From Octopus vulgaris (taxonomy: Eukaryota): 64,000 bases of DNA. The stretch is from NCBI GenBank assembly GCA_951406725.2, contig OX597824.1, positions 8,308,001-8,372,000 on the forward strand, written 5' to 3'. The position numbers were made by a program, and so were the translations under genes. This document shows, piece after piece, positions 1,457 to 59,608 of this stretch. The notes under the pieces are model-generated. The model was not told the origin of the DNA, did not search any database, and saw only the letters and a program-made list of their open reading frames with translations. How positions within the stretch are numbered: the first letter of the stretch is position 1; each line of letters starts with the position of its first letter.

Positions 1457-1529
<73 letters not shown>

Positions 1530-1578
1530 GAGACAGAGAGAGGGAGAAAGAGAGAGAGAGAGAAAGAGAGAGAGAGAA

Positions 1579-1611
<33 letters not shown>

Positions 1612-1678
1612 AAGAGAGAGGGAGAGAGAGAAAGAGAGAGAGGGAACGAGAAAGAGAAAGAGAGAGAGAGAGAGAGGG
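1457..1678. repeat. (GA)n microsatellite
   Basis: Direct reading. Confidence 0.95.
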
Positions 1679-2223
1679 AGAACTTTTGGTTAAAGCTGAA
1701 GACATTGACTGGCATTCATGAAAGATTGGTAGCATCTAAGGAATGTTCTTGTGATTGGAAGAATTAGCGGCTTAAAGTGAATATACGATACATTTGTGAT
1801 ACGACCAATGAACATTCCACGGTACAACTGAAATATCTTGCTGACTACGATGCAAATAAACATCATATTGACTCTGTCTTACATCCGTAATTTACAGACT
1901 TGGTTGTGTGGTTAAGTGGTTAAGAAGTTTGCTTTGCAATCACAAGGTTTTTGGTTCAATCCTTCCACACAGCAATTTGGGGAAATGTCTTCTTATATAG
2001 CTCCAAGTCAACCAATATCTTGTGAATGAATTTGGTGGATGGAAAATGGAAGAAACTTATTGGATAATTATGTTTTTCTGTCTGTGTATATATGTATGTA
2101 TAATAGGGTTAGAGAAGGCTCCTGTTGCTTTTGACAAAGCTGTGGGGAAGGCAGCTCTTCTAAGAGAAAAATACCGTAACATAAAACTTGCCATCAAAAT
2201 AGTACCAGTCATTTTGTAATGCT

Positions 2224-2680
2224 TATTTCTTATTTCTTTACTACCCACAAGGGGCTAAACATAGAAGGGAACAAACAAGGACAGACAAAAGGATTAAGTC
2301 GATTACATTGACCTCAGTGCATAACTGGTACTTATTTAATCGACCCTGAAAGGATGAAAGGCAAAATCGACCTCGGCGGAATTTGAACTCAGAACGTAGC
2401 GGCAGACGAAATACCACTAAGCATTTCGCCCGGTGTGCTAACGATTCTTATTTCTTTATTGCCCACAAGGGGCTAAACATAGAGGGGGCAAACAAGGACA
2501 GACATAGGGATTAAGTCGATTACAAAGACCTCAGTGTGTAACTGGTACTTATTTAATCGACCCCGAATGGATGAAAGGCAAAGTCAACCTCGGCAGAATT
2601 TGAACTCAGAATGTAGCGGCAGATGAAATACTGCTCAGCATTTCACCCGGCATGTTAACGTTTCTGCCAGCTTAGCCATC
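2224..2680 (-). mobile_element. SINE family B dimer
   Basis: Two head-to-tail units, reverse complement of 60887-61117. Confidence 0.85.
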
Positions 2681-3015
2681 TTGTAATGCTTGTCACTGGA
2701 AAGTATTATGGTGACCGAGAGAGCGGCAAAAGTGCTGTCCAGGCATTTATCCTTTAAATCCAATGACATACAGATGTCTCACTATTATTCCATTTTTTTA
2801 TCCATTTTGTATTCTATAAAGTTCGATGGTGATGGATGCATGGCATGAAATGCAAAAAGTCATTTCCACACGCATGCAAGGATGAAAGTATATCAGAACA
2901 ATGTGAAATGGATATTATTTGACAAGATGATAGCCATCTTGCTCTCCGGCTGAATGTAAGATGGCTATCATCTGACAAGAGGAGGCAATTATGTATGTAT
3001 GTGTGCATGTATGTA

Positions 3016-19995: not shown

Positions 19996-20255
19996 AATAA
20001 TAATAAAGAGTATGGAGACATGTACATCCACAAAGTTTATTTTATAGTTATATACAACATATCATAATGACCTACAATTGTTTCTGATGCAGCAACTACT
20101 CACTGTTGCAGATGATTCAACCTTGCAATATTGTAAATGCAGCTTCATCAGGGTCCTGATGAAGCGGAAACACGTGTAGGTCATTATAATATGCTATATG
20201 TAACTATAAAATAAATTTTGTGGACATACAAGTTTCCATACTCTTTATTATTATT
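19996..20255. mobile_element. Fold-back element with two divergent hammerhead-like motifs
   Basis: About 89-bp inverted arms 19996-20084 / 20167-20255; CUGAUGA..GAAAC..GUA on both strands (minus 20155-20069, plus 20152-20182). Confidence 0.7.
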
Positions 20256-20257
20256 AA

Positions 20258-20631
20258 TCTCTCTATATATAAAGCTGAAGTTGTCTGTGTATGGCAGGTT
20301 TGGTAGCCTTCAACTAACACTATCTCCTCTGAGACCCTGCGGCGCAAGTTGACTAAAATTGAGAGTATGATAGAAGAAGGCTTGCCCTTCTTTCCGTAGA
20401 AGATAAAATTCAAATCAGACCATGTTAACACCAAAGGTACTTTTTTTCTATGAAAATCCCTATTTTTCACGATTTTTTGACTGCTGTTTTGCCATTTTTC
20501 GATGTATTTCAACCAGAAAAATGTTCACTTAAAGAGAATAACAAGCTACACAATGCAACATTTTTACTTTTCAAAAATTCCAATTCTGAAGGGTCGAAAC
20601 AAACCCGAGCAACGCCGGGCGATACTGCTAG
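20258..20631 (+). mobile_element. Non-autonomous Helitron
   Basis: 5' TC start (A|TCTCTCTATATATAAAG), 3' GC hairpin CCCGAGCAACGCCGGG (20604-20619), then CTAG|T; inserted between A and T with no TSD. Confidence 0.85.
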
Positions 20632-20723
20632 TATTATATACATGCCAGACAATTTTTACTGTCCATTGAAGAGAACACAGAATTACCCATCGAAAGAATT
20701 CACAGAGTGACTAACAACTAAAT

Positions 20724-21109
20724 GGGAAGCACTCCGTCAGTTACGACGACGAGGGTTCCGGTTGATCCGAATCAACGAAACAGCCTGCTCGTGAAATTAA
20801 CGTGTAAGTGGCTGAGCACTCCACAGACACATGTACCCTTAACGTAGTTCTCGGGGATATTCAGCGTGACACAGAGAGTGACAAGGCCGGCCCTTTGAAA
20901 TACAGGTACAACAGAAACAGGAAGTAAGAGGGAGAGAAAGTTGTGGTGAAAGAGAACAGCAGGGATCACCACCATCCCCTGCCGGAGCCTCGTGGAGCTT
21001 TAGGTGATTTCACTCAATAAACACTCACAACGCCCGGTCTGGGAATCAAAACCACGATCCTATGACTGCTAGTCCACTGCCCTAACCACTGGGCCATTGC
21101 GCCTCCACT
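20724..21109 (-). mobile_element. tRNA-derived SINE family E
   Basis: Minus-strand head GGCGCAATGGCCCAGTGGTTAGGGCAG..GGTTTTGATTCCC; 12-bp TSD TAACAACTAAAT at 20712-20723 and 21110-21121. Confidence 0.85.
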
Positions 21110-21434
21110 TAACAACTAAATATAGTCGCAGACGTTAGATATTGATCGCTGTGGTTAACCATTAACTGGAACTTAATTGAGAGCTAATACAGCATCTGCC
21201 CAAATAATATATCCTTCCTAGCATGATCATTACCTGCGTCACCTTAAAAGCACCCACGATACTCTCAGAGTGGTTGGCATTAGGAAGGGCATCCAGGTGT
21301 TGAAACTCTGCCAGATCAGACTGGCGTCTAGTGCAGCCATCAGGTTCGCCAGACCTCAGTCAAATCGTCCAACCCATGCTAGCATGGAAAGCGGACGTTA
21401 AACGATGATGATGATGATGATGATGATGATGATA

Positions 21435-21846
21435 GGCGCAGGAGTGGCTGTGTGGTAAGTAGCTTGTTTACCAACTACATGGTTCCGGGTTCAGTCCCTC
21501 TGCATGGCACCTTGGGCAAGTGACTTCTGCTATAGCCCCGGGCCGATGAAAGCCTTGTGAGTGGATTCGGTAGACGGAAACTGAAAGAAGCCCGTCGTAT
21601 ATATGTATATATATATATATATGCGTGTGTGTGCTTGTGTGTCTGTGTTTGTCCCCCTAGCATTGCTTGACAACTGATGCTGGTGTGTTTACGTCCCTGT
21701 AACTTAGCCGTTCAGCAAAATAGACTGATAGAATAAGTACTAGGCTTACAAAAGAATAAGTCCCGGGGTCGAGTTGCTCGACTAAAGGCGGTGCTCCAGC
21801 ATGGCTGCAGTCAAATGACTGAAACAAGTAATAGAGTAAAAGAGAG
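21435..21846 (+). mobile_element. tRNA-derived SINE family A (CORE-like), full length
   Basis: A box TGGCTGTGTGG, B box GGTTCAGTCCC, CORE-like CCTTGGGCAAGTG, internal (TA)n(TG)n, and (GTAAAAGA)n-type tail. About 30 full or partial copies in the window. Confidence 0.9.
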
Positions 21847-21903
21847 TATGATATCTGTCTGTCTATATAAGAAATAATGTTGGAAATGCCTAGAAATAGA
21901 GTG

Positions 21904-22073
21904 AGAATTAATTATATTTTAATTATATTTTTAAAATATAAGAATGCATTTTATTGGTTTCTCATCAGATTTTTAAAAGTGTATAGCGTACGAAACAGTG
22001 TTGTGAAATCTAATATGAAACCAGTTAAGTGAATTCCTATAGTTTAAAATATAATTAAATTCTAATTAATTCT
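21904..22073. repeat. AT-rich inverted repeat (fold-back)
   Basis: About 68-bp arms 21904-21972 / 22006-22073 around a 33-bp loop containing CGAAACAGTGTT. Confidence 0.7.
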
Positions 22074-22140
22074 AATATATTCTCTGTTCAATTTCATCTT
22101 CATCTTCATTTCTTCTATTCCTCCACCTGTTTGGATTAAT

Positions 22141-22244
<104 letters not shown>

Positions 22245-22281
22245 ATATGTATATATGTATATATATATATGTATATATGTA

Positions 22282-22359
<78 letters not shown>

Positions 22360-22361
<2 letters not shown>

Positions 22362-22717
22362 GGGTGTCCCGGAAATTAAGGCAACTGAAGTTTTGAACTT
22401 TATTAACTGTCAATAAATGTGATATGATATGAAAATTATACATCATTATAAAAGCTTAATATGTCTTCTTTTTGTTTCAGACTAAATAAGTTCAGATTTA
22501 TAAATTAAATAACAGCTATAGACTGAAATACAATCATAACTCTCTGCAAATAAGGTGAGAGTAATAATACAGCCATAGCAACAAAGCTTAAAATTAACGG
22601 AACAACTGTCTGGAAAATTCTCTGGTTCCATTGCTGATTGATCTGGATGTGGCCATAACTATGGGCTCACTCGACAAAATTGAAAAAAATTGGTTGCCTT
22701 AATTTTGGGACAACCTG
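22360..22717 (+). mobile_element. Internally deleted Tc1/mariner element
   Basis: About 25-bp TIRs CAGGGTGTCCCGGAAATTAAGGCAAC / GTTGCCTTAATTTTGGGACAACCTG, preceded by TA; internal HTH remnant IITLCK*GESNNTAIATKLKINGTTVWKI. Confidence 0.8.
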
Positions 22718-22778
22718 TGTGTGTGTGTGTGTGTGTGTGTATAAACATACATACATACATTCATACATATATATATAT

Positions 22779-23168
22779 AGGAGTGGCTGTGTGGTAAGTA
22801 GCTTGTTTACCAACCACATGGTTCCGGGTTCAGTCCTACTGCGTAGCACCTTGGGCAACTGTCTTCTACTAAGCCTCGGGCCGAGCAAAAGCCTTGTGAG
22901 TGGATTTGGTAGATGGAAACTGAAAGAAGCCCGTCGTATATATGTATATATATGTGTGTCTGTGTTTGTTCCCCTAGCATTGCTTGACAACCTATGCTGG
23001 TGTGTTTATGTCCCCGTTACTTAGCGGTTCGGCAAAAGAGACCGATAGAATAAGTACTGGGCTTACAAAAGAATAAGTCCCGGGGTCGAGTTGCTCGACT
23101 AAAGGCGGTGCTCCAGCATGGCCGCAGTCAAATGACTGAAACAAGTAAAAGAGTAAAAGAGTAAAGAG
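22779..23168 (+). mobile_element. SINE family A
   Basis: Near-identical to 21435-21846. Confidence 0.9.
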
Positions 23169-23809
23169 TATATATATATATATATATATGCACACACACA
23201 CACTGACACATTTTTTTAATGTTTGCCTTATTTAATATCAGTGGTATTCTTCTCTTACAATCCATCTTAATCTAAAATTAAAATTAATTTTTTTACCAAA
23301 ATTTTTTCACCGACTTCTTTCAACATATGAAATACATTTAAAAAGATTTAGAAGGTGGAGGGGAAGAAGAAGAAGAAAAAGAAGAAGAAGAAGGAGGAGG
23401 AGGAGGAGGAGGAGGAGGAAGGAGGAAAGAGGAGGAGAAGAAGAAGAAGAAGAAGAAGAAGAAGAAGAAGAAGAAGAAGAAGGGAAGGAGGAAGAGGAGA
23501 AGGAGTAGAAGAAGAAGAAGGATGATGATGACATATCAAAACCACTACCAATGACAACACCATCCAGAACATCAACAAGGACAGCAACAACCACAACATC
23601 AGTAACAACAACAATAATGAAAACCACCAGAAATACACAACCCTACAACAGGAACAACCTTTCAGACAGAATCTATCAATAATCCGTCTCTACGTGTATC
23701 TATGATCAGGAATTATTCCGATCAGAAATTATTGTCACCGATTCTTTGTTTGTTTGTTTTTTTCTCTCTACTTTTAGGTTTTTTGAAAAATTTTTTTGCG
23801 ATAATTGTT

Positions 23810-24898
23810 TGGTATTTCAGTCATTGGACTGCGGCCTTCAAGGGTTTTAATTGAATGAAGCAATCCCAGGACTTATTTTACTTCTAATCTGGTACTTAAT
23901 CTCTTTTTGGTGAACTGCTTAGTTATGGGAGGGACATAAACAAACCAACACTGGTTGCGTTGTCAGGGGGTGGCAGAGGACAAATACAAATGTAAAGACA
24001 CACACACACACACACACACATACACACACACACACACACATTATATACATACATATGTATGTATATTCTTTTATTTGTTTCAGTTATTTGACTGTGGCCA
24101 TGCTGGTACACCACCTTGAAGTGTTTTTGTTGAACAAATCGACCCCAGGAATTATTTTTTAAAGCTTAGTACTTATTCTATCGGTCTCTTTTGCCAAAAT
24201 GCTAAGTTAGGGGAAAGCAAACACACCAACACCGGTTGTCAAGCGACAATGGAAAAATAAACACAGACACAAAGACACACACACGCAGACACACACACAC
24301 ACACACACGATAGGCTTCTTTCAGTTTCCATCTATCAAATCCACTCACAAAGTTTTGGTTGGCCCAAGGCTATAGCAGAAGACATTTGCCCAATGTGCCA
24401 CGCAGTGGGACTGAACCCAGTGTCACGTGGTTGGGAAGCAAGCTTCTTACCACACAGCCACTCCTGCACCTATATGTATATACACTCTTTTACTCTTTTA
24501 CTCTTTGACTTGTTTCAGTCATTTGACTGTGGCCATGCTGGAGCACGGCCTTTAGTTGAGCAAATCAACCCCAGGACTTATTCTTTGTAAGCCTAGTACT
24601 TATTCTATCGGTCTCTTTTGCCGAACCGCTGGGTTATGGGGACGTAGACTCACCAGCATCGGTTGTCAAGCAATGTTTTGGGGACAAACACAGACACACA
24701 AGCATACACATATGCACATATATATACATATATACGGCGGGCTTCTTTCAGTTTCCATCTACCAAATCCACTCACAAAGCTTTGGTCAGCCCGAGGCTAT
24801 AGTAGAAGACACTTGCTCAAGGTGCCACGCAGTGGGACTGAACCCAGAACCACGCAGTTGGGAAGCAAGCTTCTTACCACACAGCCACCCTTGTGCCT
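23810..24898 (-). mobile_element. Cluster of three family A SINEs (partial, 24065-24470, 24485-24898)
   Basis: Reverse-complement homology to 21435-21846. Confidence 0.85.
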
Positions 24899-25380
24899 AT
24901 ATATATATATATTTAGATCAATGCACTAATATTTATTAGTAACACCAGCAAGTACACATTAGAAGTATGACTACTTTGATGTCTGCCAGATTTCTTTGTG
25001 GCTTGGCACAGAGACGCCTAGTGTTTTAGAAAAGATACATATGTAAGAGATTGCGATGATCTGCTTTCTTCCCCAAGGGTATTAGGAGTATAAATAAAGC
25101 AAACTCACTAGAAATTGGGATTAAGGCAGCATTTCGGGGTGTCCGGGATAAATCTGGTGGGGTTTTTTCTTTTTTTCATGTCTCTTTTTTTTCAGACACA
25201 GTTTGATGTATTGGTGAAGAGTCAACGATGTTGGAGAGCATAAAGATTGAAATTGTATGAGTTGAGAAAAAATATAGCAGCTGACATGGGAGGCTGGAAG
25301 TCATCTGAATATTGGAAAAGAATCACCTGTATCAAGATGATTCGTGCCAGGTATCAAAATGCCAACATTATGATTGTTGC

Positions 25381-52251: not shown

Positions 52252-52516
52252 TTCAATGACCAAAGACCTCCTTGGAAAAATGTCATTTGCATTTGTTACC
52301 TGACACACAAAATGCCTAAGAACCTCTTATTTTCATTACACTTTAAATAAGTAAAATATTCACCATTTTATTATTGTTAATTACTAATCTACTTTTGTGA
52401 TGGGTTTTCTGCCTTAGATTTTGTTCTTAATTGTGATTGTTGGGGGTCGTAAAATAAAAAGAGATTTTACATTATTTACATATGACAGATATTTGTCCTC
52501 ATCTTGTTTGTTGTTA

Positions 52517-52560
52517 ACACAACATTTCGGCTGATATACCCTCCAGCCTTCATCAGGTGT
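52517..52560 (-). ncRNA. Minimal type-I hammerhead ribozyme motif (Penelope pLTR type)
   Basis: Minus strand: ACAC-CUGAUGA-A-GGCUG-gagggtatat-CAGCC-GAAA-UGUU-GUGU. Stem I is ACAC/GUGU, stem II is GGCUG/CAGCC, the core is intact, and stem III is probably decayed from ACGU. Confidence 0.8.
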
Positions 52561-52610
52561 CTTGGGGGAAATTTCAAACCTGGGTTCTCATTCCTAAGGT
52601 ATTTTTCAAG

Positions 52611-52649
<39 letters not shown>

Positions 52650-52752
52650 ATTATTTCCTCAAATTTTCTTCTGTTTCTCGCTGAGTGTTTTCCGTATACC
52701 TAGGGCAGAGAAGCTCATTGTATGCATTCCCAGATTACACACACAAATTCAC

Positions 52753-52818
<66 letters not shown>

Positions 52819-53367
52819 GACAGGCTTCTTTCAGTTTCTGTCTAACAAATCCACTCACAAGGCTTTGGTCGGCTCGAGGCTATATTAGAAGACACTTGTC
52901 CACAGTGTTATGCAGTGGGACTGAACCTGGAACAACGTAGTTGATAAGCAAGCTACTTACCACACAGCCCCCAAACAGTGCAGTTTTCAAGGTTTAAGTT
53001 TCATTATTTGATGGGAAATTTGGTTTCATAACCATAATGGTAAGTTAGCGGTTCAGTTTAGTAAGAATTGGTTGGAAGTCGTTTAATCAATTTTGCAATT
53101 TACATGTAGAATGGTTAAAATACTGTATCTTGATGATTGTTCTGCTAACCACAAATAATGGACTGGCATTTAGCTTTGTCTATAAAATAAGAAGTAAACT
53201 CAATTCTTGGTCTTTCTTTGTGTTCCTCCAGATAAGGCCATTGATTAATTTAACCAAAATCAATTTCTTCACAGAAGCGGAGTCTCCGTCAGGAATCATG
53301 AATTTAATTCTGTGATTTTGTGGCTGATGCATGAAAAGGCAAGCTTGAAAGAGGAATAATTGGTGTG

Positions 53368-58635: not shown

Positions 58636-58781
58636 ATTTACATTATTTACATTTGATGGATATTTGTCCTCATCTTGTTTGTTGCTAACACAATGTTTCG
58701 GTTGATATACTCTCCAGCCTTCATCGGGTGTCTTTGGGAGATTTCAAACCTAGGTTCCCATTCCCAAGGTATTTTTCAATC

Positions 58782-58833
<52 letters not shown>

Positions 58834-58991
58834 TTATTATTAATATTATTATTCAGGTTACTGCTTGGAATCGAACTGGGAATCTTGGGGTTAGTAGCCT
58901 GCGCTCCTAACCACTATGCCATATAATGAGAACAAATATCCATCAAATGTAAATAATGTACATAATTCCTCATCTCTTAAATATAGAACTG
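58636..58991 (-). mobile_element. tRNA-headed, hammerhead-containing retroposon with an inverted terminal duplication
   Basis: A box TGGCATAGTGG (58921-58911), B box AGTTCGATTCC (58877-58867), (AAT)n linker, HHR, and a 35-bp inverted repeat 58639-58673 / 58926-58960. The body is also present at 52466-52607. Confidence 0.7.
58688..58731 (-). ncRNA. Degenerate copy of the same hammerhead motif
   Basis: ACAC-CCGAUGA-A-GGCUG..CAACC-GAAA-CAUU-GUGU; U4C in the core and one stem II mismatch. Confidence 0.65.
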
Positions 58992-59164: not shown

Positions 59165-59337
59165 TAGGCGCAGGAGTGGCTGTGTGGTAAGTAGCTTGCT
59201 AACCAACCACATGGTTCCGAGTTCAGTCCCACTGCGTGACATCTTGGGCAAGTGTCTTCTGCTATAGCCCCGGGCCGACCAATGCCTTGTGAGTGGATTT
59301 GGTAGACAGAAACTGAAAGAAGCCTGTCGTATATATG

Positions 59338-59374
<37 letters not shown>

Positions 59375-59608
59375 ATGTGTTAGTGTGTCTGTGTTTGTCC
59401 CCCTAGCATTGCTTGACAACCGATGCTGGTGTGTTTACGTCCCCGTCACTTAGCGGTTCGGCAAAAGGGACCGATAGCATAAGTACTGAGCTTACAAAGA
59501 ATAAGTCCCGGGGTCGATTTGCTAGACTAAAGGCAGTGCTTCAGCATGGCCACAGTCAAATGACTGAAACAAGTAAGAGAGTAAAAAAAAAAGAATAAAG
59601 AGTAAAAG
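59165..59608 (+). mobile_element. SINE family A, full length
   Basis: Near-identical to 21435-21846; partial copies at 46435-46875, 48655-49075, 52817-52970 and 53640-53860. Confidence 0.9.

What the first reader, a model, noticed from the sequence alone, without database searches (positions are those of the whole stretch)
58636..58991. tRNA-headed retroposon carrying a hammerhead ribozyme: candidate Penelope-mobilised SINE
Seen, minus strand 5' to 3': a tRNA-like head with A box (TGGCATAGTGG) and B box (AGTTCGATTCC), an (AAT)n linker, a ~45-nt body, a minimal type-I HHR (58731-58688) and an AT-rich tail. A 35-bp inverted copy of that tail (58926-58960 vs 58639-58673) abuts the 5' end. Established: minimal HHRs with palindromic stem III and inverted terminal copies are hallmarks of Penelope-like element (PLE) pLTRs, whereas tRNA SINEs normally borrow LINE tails. 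Inference: a Pol III-transcribed, self-cleaving, non-autonomous element that uses PLE machinery, a SINE/retrozyme hybrid. I do not know whether it has been described.
Basis: partly seen in the sequence, partly recalled or inferred. Interest (0 to 1): 0.85.

Follow-up and report, generated by a model that had tools for sequence, protein, structure and literature searches.

The report
Penelope retrotransposon with built-in tRNA head

Summary
The feature is real but is not a separate SINE/retrozyme chimera. It is the pseudo-LTR of a Penelope/Poseidon-type retrotransposon (RT plus C-terminal GIY-YIG). The tRNA-like head lies inside the coding element, about 30 nt behind the endonuclease stop (23 of 30, 30 of 30 and 17 of 19 coding copies in three samples), and the hammerhead and tail are the start of the next ORF. 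Insertions show Penelope hallmarks: inverted arms, a ~30-nt tail on one arm only (44 of 50) and target duplications. The unusual result is a cliff of 5' ends at tRNA position 1: 77 of 86 heads start within -20..+9, and exact 20-mer counts fall from 4372 to 850 across it. This suggests Pol III-started templates, i.e. a SINE built into the parent element; a palindrome at the same spot is a live rival. The window's own hammerhead is mutated; the family's majority form is intact. Direct tandems are rare (1 of 91), so no retrozyme. RNA reads show no defined ends. The 2.6-kb unit has no T4 run, leaving open a Pol III-read coding element. No description found in nine literature searches; Repbase/Dfam unchecked.

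The parts
58854..58924 (-). tRNA-like head with A box (58921-58911) and B box (58877-58867); this copy starts at position +4 of the family's head. In coding copies it lies ~30 nt behind the endonuclease stop.
   Evidence: sequence; best of 30 host tRNA loci: Arg-TCT and Arg-TCG, z about 8 against shuffles; position in coding copies
58781..58853 (-). (AAT)n microsatellite linker, length variable between copies
58733..58780 (-). body: short leader and the likely start codon (58761) of the Penelope ORF
   Evidence: body and tail run on into the ORF N-terminus in tandem copies; relative P0004 has a similar N-terminal peptide in this frame
58687..58732 (-). minimal type I hammerhead, decayed in this copy (CCGAUGA, AUU triplet, stem II mismatch); predicted cut between 58692 and 58691 in intact copies
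   Evidence: features as in PMC4209133
58632..58686 (-). 3' end of the direct arm, stopping at the inner of the family's two preferred 3' ends
   Evidence: (3' ends peak at yardstick positions 139/145 and 169-176)
58926..58991 (+). inverted, 5'-truncated second arm (66 bp) that carries the ~30-bp Penelope tail
52466..52656 (-). second copy of the body/hammerhead in the window; other repeats lie where the head would be

Best explanation
The stretch is a two-armed, 5'-short insertion of the pseudo-LTR of a Penelope/Poseidon-type retrotransposon whose pseudo-LTR contains a tRNA-like A/B-box head, and most such short copies were likely templated by RNA polymerase III transcripts that start at that head. 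Shown: the unit is [head-(AAT)n-leader-ATG-hammerhead-tail-RT-GIY-YIG-stop-30 nt] in partial tandem, and most copies start at the head. Inferred: Pol III starts at about -7 to +1, meets no T4 terminator and reads through hammerhead and tail. The element's own RT/endonuclease nicks both strands about 10-14 bp apart and primes a cDNA from each nick, one at each of two start sites ~30 nt apart, which gives an inverted pair with the tail on one arm. The hammerhead is a passenger inherited from the parent and must stay uncut for the head to be copied. The result is a SINE-like population built into its parent, not a separate SINE lineage.
For: Head behind the endonuclease stop in 23 of 30 loci picked by RT-EN DNA, 30 of 30 picked by the 20-mer just upstream (some duplicated), 17 of 19 picked by a distant protein that reach the stop. 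Tail runs into the ORF. 569-aa open frame with RT; relatives are 810-855-aa PLE-type ORFs. Tail on exactly one arm in 44 of 50 pairs, Fisher p=6e-8; flanking direct repeats in 28 of 50 against 3 of 245 mismatched controls. Exact CpG-free 20-mers: body 8254, head 4372, just upstream 850, endonuclease 849; corrected for word conservation, roughly 20,000-25,000 against 1,500-3,000 arms. 77 of 86 heads that reach +10 end within -20..+9 (0.03-0.06 per nt against 0.002-0.009 elsewhere); position 0 is the commonest end (12 of 113); the cliff persists in the 81 heads not joined through the palindrome. A stronger hairpin in the ORF is passed by 7 of 8 copies against 9 of 86 at the head. No T4 run in head, body or tail. 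Two RT start sites, the tail and dispensable hammerhead cleavage are shown for anole Poseidon (PMC11167929).
Against: A natural palindrome is centred at -2/-1, exactly at the cliff, and is the second-strongest cDNA hairpin of the unit; 32 of 113 heads are joined head-to-head through it, and many ends at 0 have a T at -1 that could be a decayed CpG. RNA-seq of a related organism (3 runs, 8779, 6091 and 5662 reads laid) shows both strands equally, no place where many molecules begin or end, and head depth about equal to endonuclease depth; such libraries may miss Pol III RNA. No diagnostic variants separate 20 short from 22 long copies. The ORF-hairpin control has only 8 copies.
Confidence: 0.55

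Rival explanations
1. All copies come from long Pol II or read-through transcripts. The cliff arises because cDNAs fold back or anneal to each other at the palindrome at the head start, and palindrome centres are later trimmed. The tRNA-like piece is a captured passenger with no promoter role.
For: Palindrome and hairpin at the cliff; 32 of 113 heads joined through it, and fold-back letters upstream of others; no separate short subfamily; no RNA starts at the head.
Against: The cliff holds for heads joined to flank or to distant parts of the element; a stronger hairpin with a similar stem makes no cliff; ends pile up at or upstream of +1, not at the 3' foot of the RNA stem (+10..+22).
Confidence: 0.33
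2. One reading: an independent non-autonomous SINE/retrozyme hybrid that self-cleaves, circularises and borrows a Penelope partner.
For: Short copies outnumber long ones about tenfold and are a little less diverged in the body (3.4% against 5.3%, n=20 and 22, p=0.023); 36 of 171 arms not picked for the ribozyme keep both core motifs.
Against: The head is in the coding element; no diagnostic variants; direct tandems 1 of 91; no clear pile-up of 5' ends at the cut site among 213 arms; no RNA ends there.
Confidence: 0.07
3. The head is a processing signal: RNase P cuts long transcripts at tRNA position 1, and the cut RNA is the template.
For: Position 0 is the commonest 5' end.
Against: The head does not pass as a tRNA and its two ends do not pair as an acceptor stem on inspection; many copies keep 4-7 nt upstream of +1.
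Confidence: 0.05

Closest known systems
Penelope/Poseidon clade of Penelope-like elements, e.g. anole Poseidon PAc (PMC11167929, parts 1-2 of 4 read; PMC8557442, passages; PMC4209133, parts 1-2 of 4)
   Same: RT plus C-terminal GIY-YIG, pLTR in partial tandem, minimal hammerhead overlapping the ORF start, inverted 5'-truncated arm, 30-40-nt tail on one end, heavy 5' truncation.
   Different: A tRNA-like A/B-box head and (AAT)n fill the non-coding part of the pLTR, and most copies start there. No such head is mentioned in the text read; an A/B-box pattern matched 1 of 79 loci of related elements (not followed up, many loci short).
Helenus, Ajax, Cassandra ('TRIMp3'; PMC10886601, passages)
   Same: A small-RNA-derived Pol III promoter placed inside a terminal repeat.
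   Different: Those are non-autonomous LTR elements whose autonomous partners are expected to use Pol II; here the head sits in the protein-coding element itself, and the class is PLE.
Schistosome Sm-alpha / Sj-alpha SINE-like retroposons with a type I hammerhead (passages in PMC8490949, PMC6155905; the original paper was not held; tRNA origin and Pol III transcription are recalled)
   Same: SINE-like element carrying a hammerhead; so 'SINE plus hammerhead' alone is not new.
   Different: Canonical hammerhead, satellite-like; no coding parent sharing the head is named in the passages seen.
Metazoan non-LTR retrozymes (PMC7229834, passages; bioRxiv 10.64898/2026.07.22.740005, parts 1-3 of 5)
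   Same: Short, type I hammerhead, related to PLE pLTRs.
   Different: Defined by head-to-tail tandems with a hammerhead in each unit and by circular RNA; here direct tandems are 1 of 91, and no tRNA head is described there.
tRNA-derived SINEs (SINE2)
   Same: tRNA head with A/B boxes, 5' ends at tRNA position 1, 3' part shared with the mobilising element.
   Different: The head is shared with the parent, no separate lineage was detected, and insertion is PLE-type with no simple-repeat 3' tail.

Membership tests
Penelope/Poseidon PLE | Single ORF with RT and C-terminal GIY-YIG endonuclease | tested here: met
   RT (Pfam RVT_1, E 2.7e-6, just under the curated cut-off); DKG, YVDD and GIY-YIG-like/CCHH motifs seen in translations; some relatives carry PF01541. 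No fully intact copy among the hits listed (longest stop-free frame 569 aa).
Penelope/Poseidon PLE | [quoted passage not shown] | tested here: met
   By inspection of the linker; criterion from PMC8557442. No tree with named clades was built.
Penelope/Poseidon PLE | pLTR by partial tandem; hammerhead at the ORF start | tested here: met
   body/tail continuous with the ORF N-terminus in most of 30 loci; L253 and L268 show EN end-head-body-ORF
Penelope/Poseidon PLE | Inverted 5'-truncated arm and 30-40-nt tail on one end | tested here: met
   50 of 91 with an inverted arm; tail on one arm in 44 of 50
Minimal type I hammerhead | CUGANGA, extra base before stem II, G-C closing pair, GAAA, palindromic 15.2-16.2, NUH | tested here: met
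   Met by the family type; not met by the window copy
Minimal type I hammerhead | Self-cleavage as a dimer or with protein help | not testable with these tools
   No clear genomic or RNA ends at the cut site
tRNA SINE (SINE2) | tRNA-derived head with A and B boxes | tested here: met
   only 30 host tRNA loci of six amino-acid types were compared, so the parent tRNA is unsettled
tRNA SINE (SINE2) | Pol III transcription from the head | tested here: inconclusive
   5'-end cliff for; RNA lay shows no defined start
tRNA SINE (SINE2) | Non-autonomous lineage distinct from its partner | tested here: not met
   Head is in the coding element; no diagnostic variants
Non-LTR retrozyme | Head-to-tail tandems with a hammerhead in each unit | tested here: not met
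   1 of 91
Non-LTR retrozyme | Circular RNA | tested here: inconclusive
   No back-joint among the 15 joints shown (29 more not shown; cDNA libraries of a related organism)

The most novel reading that the evidence does not exclude
The tRNA-like head is the promoter of the whole element: Pol III reads the entire 2.6-kb unit, ORF included, making this an autonomous protein-coding retrotransposon driven by a tRNA promoter. The head is the only promoter-like sequence recognised in the ~150 nt between stop and next ATG. The unit's column majority has no run of 4 or more T (codon-shuffle mean 2.9, p=0.025; Markov nulls p=0.003-0.23), while 0 of 23 related PLE ORFs lack one. Against: G4 runs are absent too, the best single natural copy has 3 T4 runs, and uncapped RNA would need an unusual route to translation.
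Probability: 0.13. Interest if true: 0.85.

Novelty: new variant of a known kind. Interest (0 to 1): 0.55.

Why it matters
SINEs are usually described as a tRNA head joined to the tail of a LINE partner. Here an autonomous Penelope-type element carries the head itself, and about nine in ten arms start at it: a possible snapshot of how a SINE-like population arises from within its parent, and a PLE counterpart of Cassandra/Helenus. It also offers a test of PLE mechanics: the two preferred 3' ends, one per arm, fit twin priming from the two RT start sites found in vitro. For annotation, these copies would be mislabelled as tRNA SINEs.

Tried and rejected
Rfam and ARAGORN detect neither head nor ribozyme. 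ARAGORN at a lowered threshold on related loci gave noise. Chance nesting rejected. An independent SINE with this head and another body: 6 of 30 head-picked loci lack the body within 1.5 kb, but they continue into (AAT)n, a cut-off body start or other repeats, with no common alternative body. A search with a distant protein for other PLE families as an in-genome control returned this family in 30 of 30 loci, so there is no in-genome control for T runs. Run search: no RNA holder listed; three raw RNA runs were added by species label only. The first 5'-end count had a reference artefact at +12 and was redone; the nine ends at +44/+45 there are alignment breaks that inflate the background. One search returned nothing (indexing slip, redone). 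Earlier scan findings: none. Two papers were not held. No paper describing a tRNA head in a PLE pLTR or a PLE-mobilised tRNA SINE turned up in searches; supplements were not opened and Repbase/Dfam could not be checked, so a library entry may exist.

Full report
Observation. The minus strand of 58636-58991 holds an A box, a B box, an (AAT)n run, a short body, a hammerhead-shaped stretch and an inverted copy of the 3' end. The window's hammerhead is mutated in the core, the cleavage triplet and stem II. The inverted arm is 66 bp and ends in ~30 bp that the direct arm lacks. Rfam and ARAGORN see neither head nor ribozyme. The head aligns best to host tRNA-Arg genes among 30 tRNA loci (z about 8). 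The host looks like an octopus-type cephalopod; that is my recall of its repeats and was not tested.

Family. An intact 46-nt hammerhead stretch has 848 exact matches in G000 and its reversed control none. I took 90 of these places (the first 30 as loci, 60 more by coordinates), which are unbiased as to their 5' side. Several had an endonuclease-like frame ending just upstream of the head. In 30 loci picked by RT-endonuclease DNA, the head follows the stop in 23; five stop within the endonuclease (four are near-identical duplicates) and two lack the head. All 30 loci picked by the 20-mer just upstream run into at least part of the head. Of 30 loci picked by a distant (38% identical) protein, all are this family, and 17 of the 19 that reach the stop continue 20 nt or more into the head. 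On the other side, body, hammerhead and tail run straight into the ORF's N-terminus, as in anole Poseidon. The best copy has a 569-aa open frame and relatives are 810-855-aa PLE-type proteins. No fully intact ORF was among the listed hits. The finding is therefore the pLTR of a Penelope/Poseidon-type element, and the head is part of that element.

Insertion anatomy. Of 91 hammerhead-picked arms, 50 have an inverted partner and 1 a direct tandem hammerhead. 3' ends fall at two sites ~30 nt apart. In 44 of 50 pairs exactly one arm has the tail (p=6e-8), and 28 of 50 have flanking direct repeats against 3 of 245 controls. Inverted arms and an optional tail are published PLE hallmarks, and the tail was traced in vitro to two RT start sites. 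That each arm is a separate cDNA primed from its own nick is my inference.

The cliff. Exact CpG-free 20-mers number 8254 (body), 4372 (head), 850 (just upstream) and 849 (116 nt further, in the endonuclease); rough correction gives 20,000-25,000 against 1,500-3,000 arms. Among 113 heads (both arms counted), 77 of the 86 that reach +10 end within -20..+9, position 0 is the commonest end, and the pattern holds in the 81 not joined through the head-start palindrome. A palindrome is centred at -2/-1 and forms the unit's second-strongest cDNA hairpin, so fold-back or cDNA-cDNA annealing is a real alternative; 32 of 113 heads are joined through it. The strongest hairpin, in the ORF, is passed by 7 of 8 copies, which argues that structure alone does not make the cliff, on small numbers. 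Short and long copies share the same variants (94 against 47 heads; 20 against 22 matched copies); short ones are a little less diverged.

Ribozyme. The family type fits the published minimal hammerhead, including the extra base before stem II and the ACGU palindrome. Of 171 arms not picked for it, 124 keep CUGANGA, 54 keep GAAACGUU and 36 keep both. There is no clear excess of 5' ends at the cut site among 213 arms. In anole Poseidon the ribozyme needs protein and is dispensable for insertion in vitro. A cut would separate the head from the RT start sites, so head-bearing copies must come from uncut RNA (inference).

RNA. Three raw RNA runs of a related organism cover the element on both strands equally, with no pile-up of starts or ends and no step at the head. 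This gives no support for a discrete Pol III RNA, though such libraries may miss one.

Terminators. The column majority of the 2.6-kb unit has no T4 run, and no T3 site is T4 in more than about 7% of copies. Nulls give p from 0.003 to 0.23. All 23 distinct related ORFs of 1.5 kb or more, taken from 79 metagenome loci, have at least one. G4 is also absent and the best natural copy has three T4 runs, so this is suggestive only.

Comparison. SINE-like elements with hammerheads are known in schistosomes, non-autonomous PLEs are known, retrozymes are tied to PLE pLTRs, and Pol III heads inside terminal repeats are known for non-autonomous LTR elements. I found no account of a tRNA head inside the pLTR of a coding PLE in nine searches; passages of two cephalopod repeat papers list Penelope and tRNA SINE families without such a link. 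Repeat libraries and supplements were not seen.

Verdict. A member of the Penelope/Poseidon kind with an added tRNA-like head: a new variant of a known kind. The identity as a PLE pLTR is close to certain; the Pol III origin of the short copies is about 0.55; a Pol III-read coding element about 0.13. Interest 0.55.

Noticed in passing
L050, L051, L058, L028, L179, L187; window 52657-52900: Other repeats with AAT tails sit inside the element's (AAT)n linker, which acts as a landing pad; TAA-targeting Dong/R4 LINEs are a recalled candidate.
   Followed up: no
L249, L260, L263, L275: Internally deleted tandem units in which the ORF's N-terminal part is joined to the endonuclease end or directly to the head: possible further non-autonomous derivatives.
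   Followed up: no
L284:733: Hundreds of RNA reads in each of three runs leave the element at one point with the same foreign sequence: one expressed host-element chimeric transcript in the related organism.
   Followed up: no
L209:1510-1555 (junction between endonuclease 3' flank and head): The ~12 nt upstream of the head are an imperfect inverted copy of the head's start, as if the head was captured through a Penelope-type fold-back.
   Followed up: partly
L084-L087: Four ~98%-identical segments on two contigs carry the same truncated copy: a segmental duplication or a larger mobile unit.
   Followed up: no
window 59204-59594: A different, abundant tRNA-headed SINE-like repeat lies next to the finding; its head gave no match to this element's head.
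   Followed up: no
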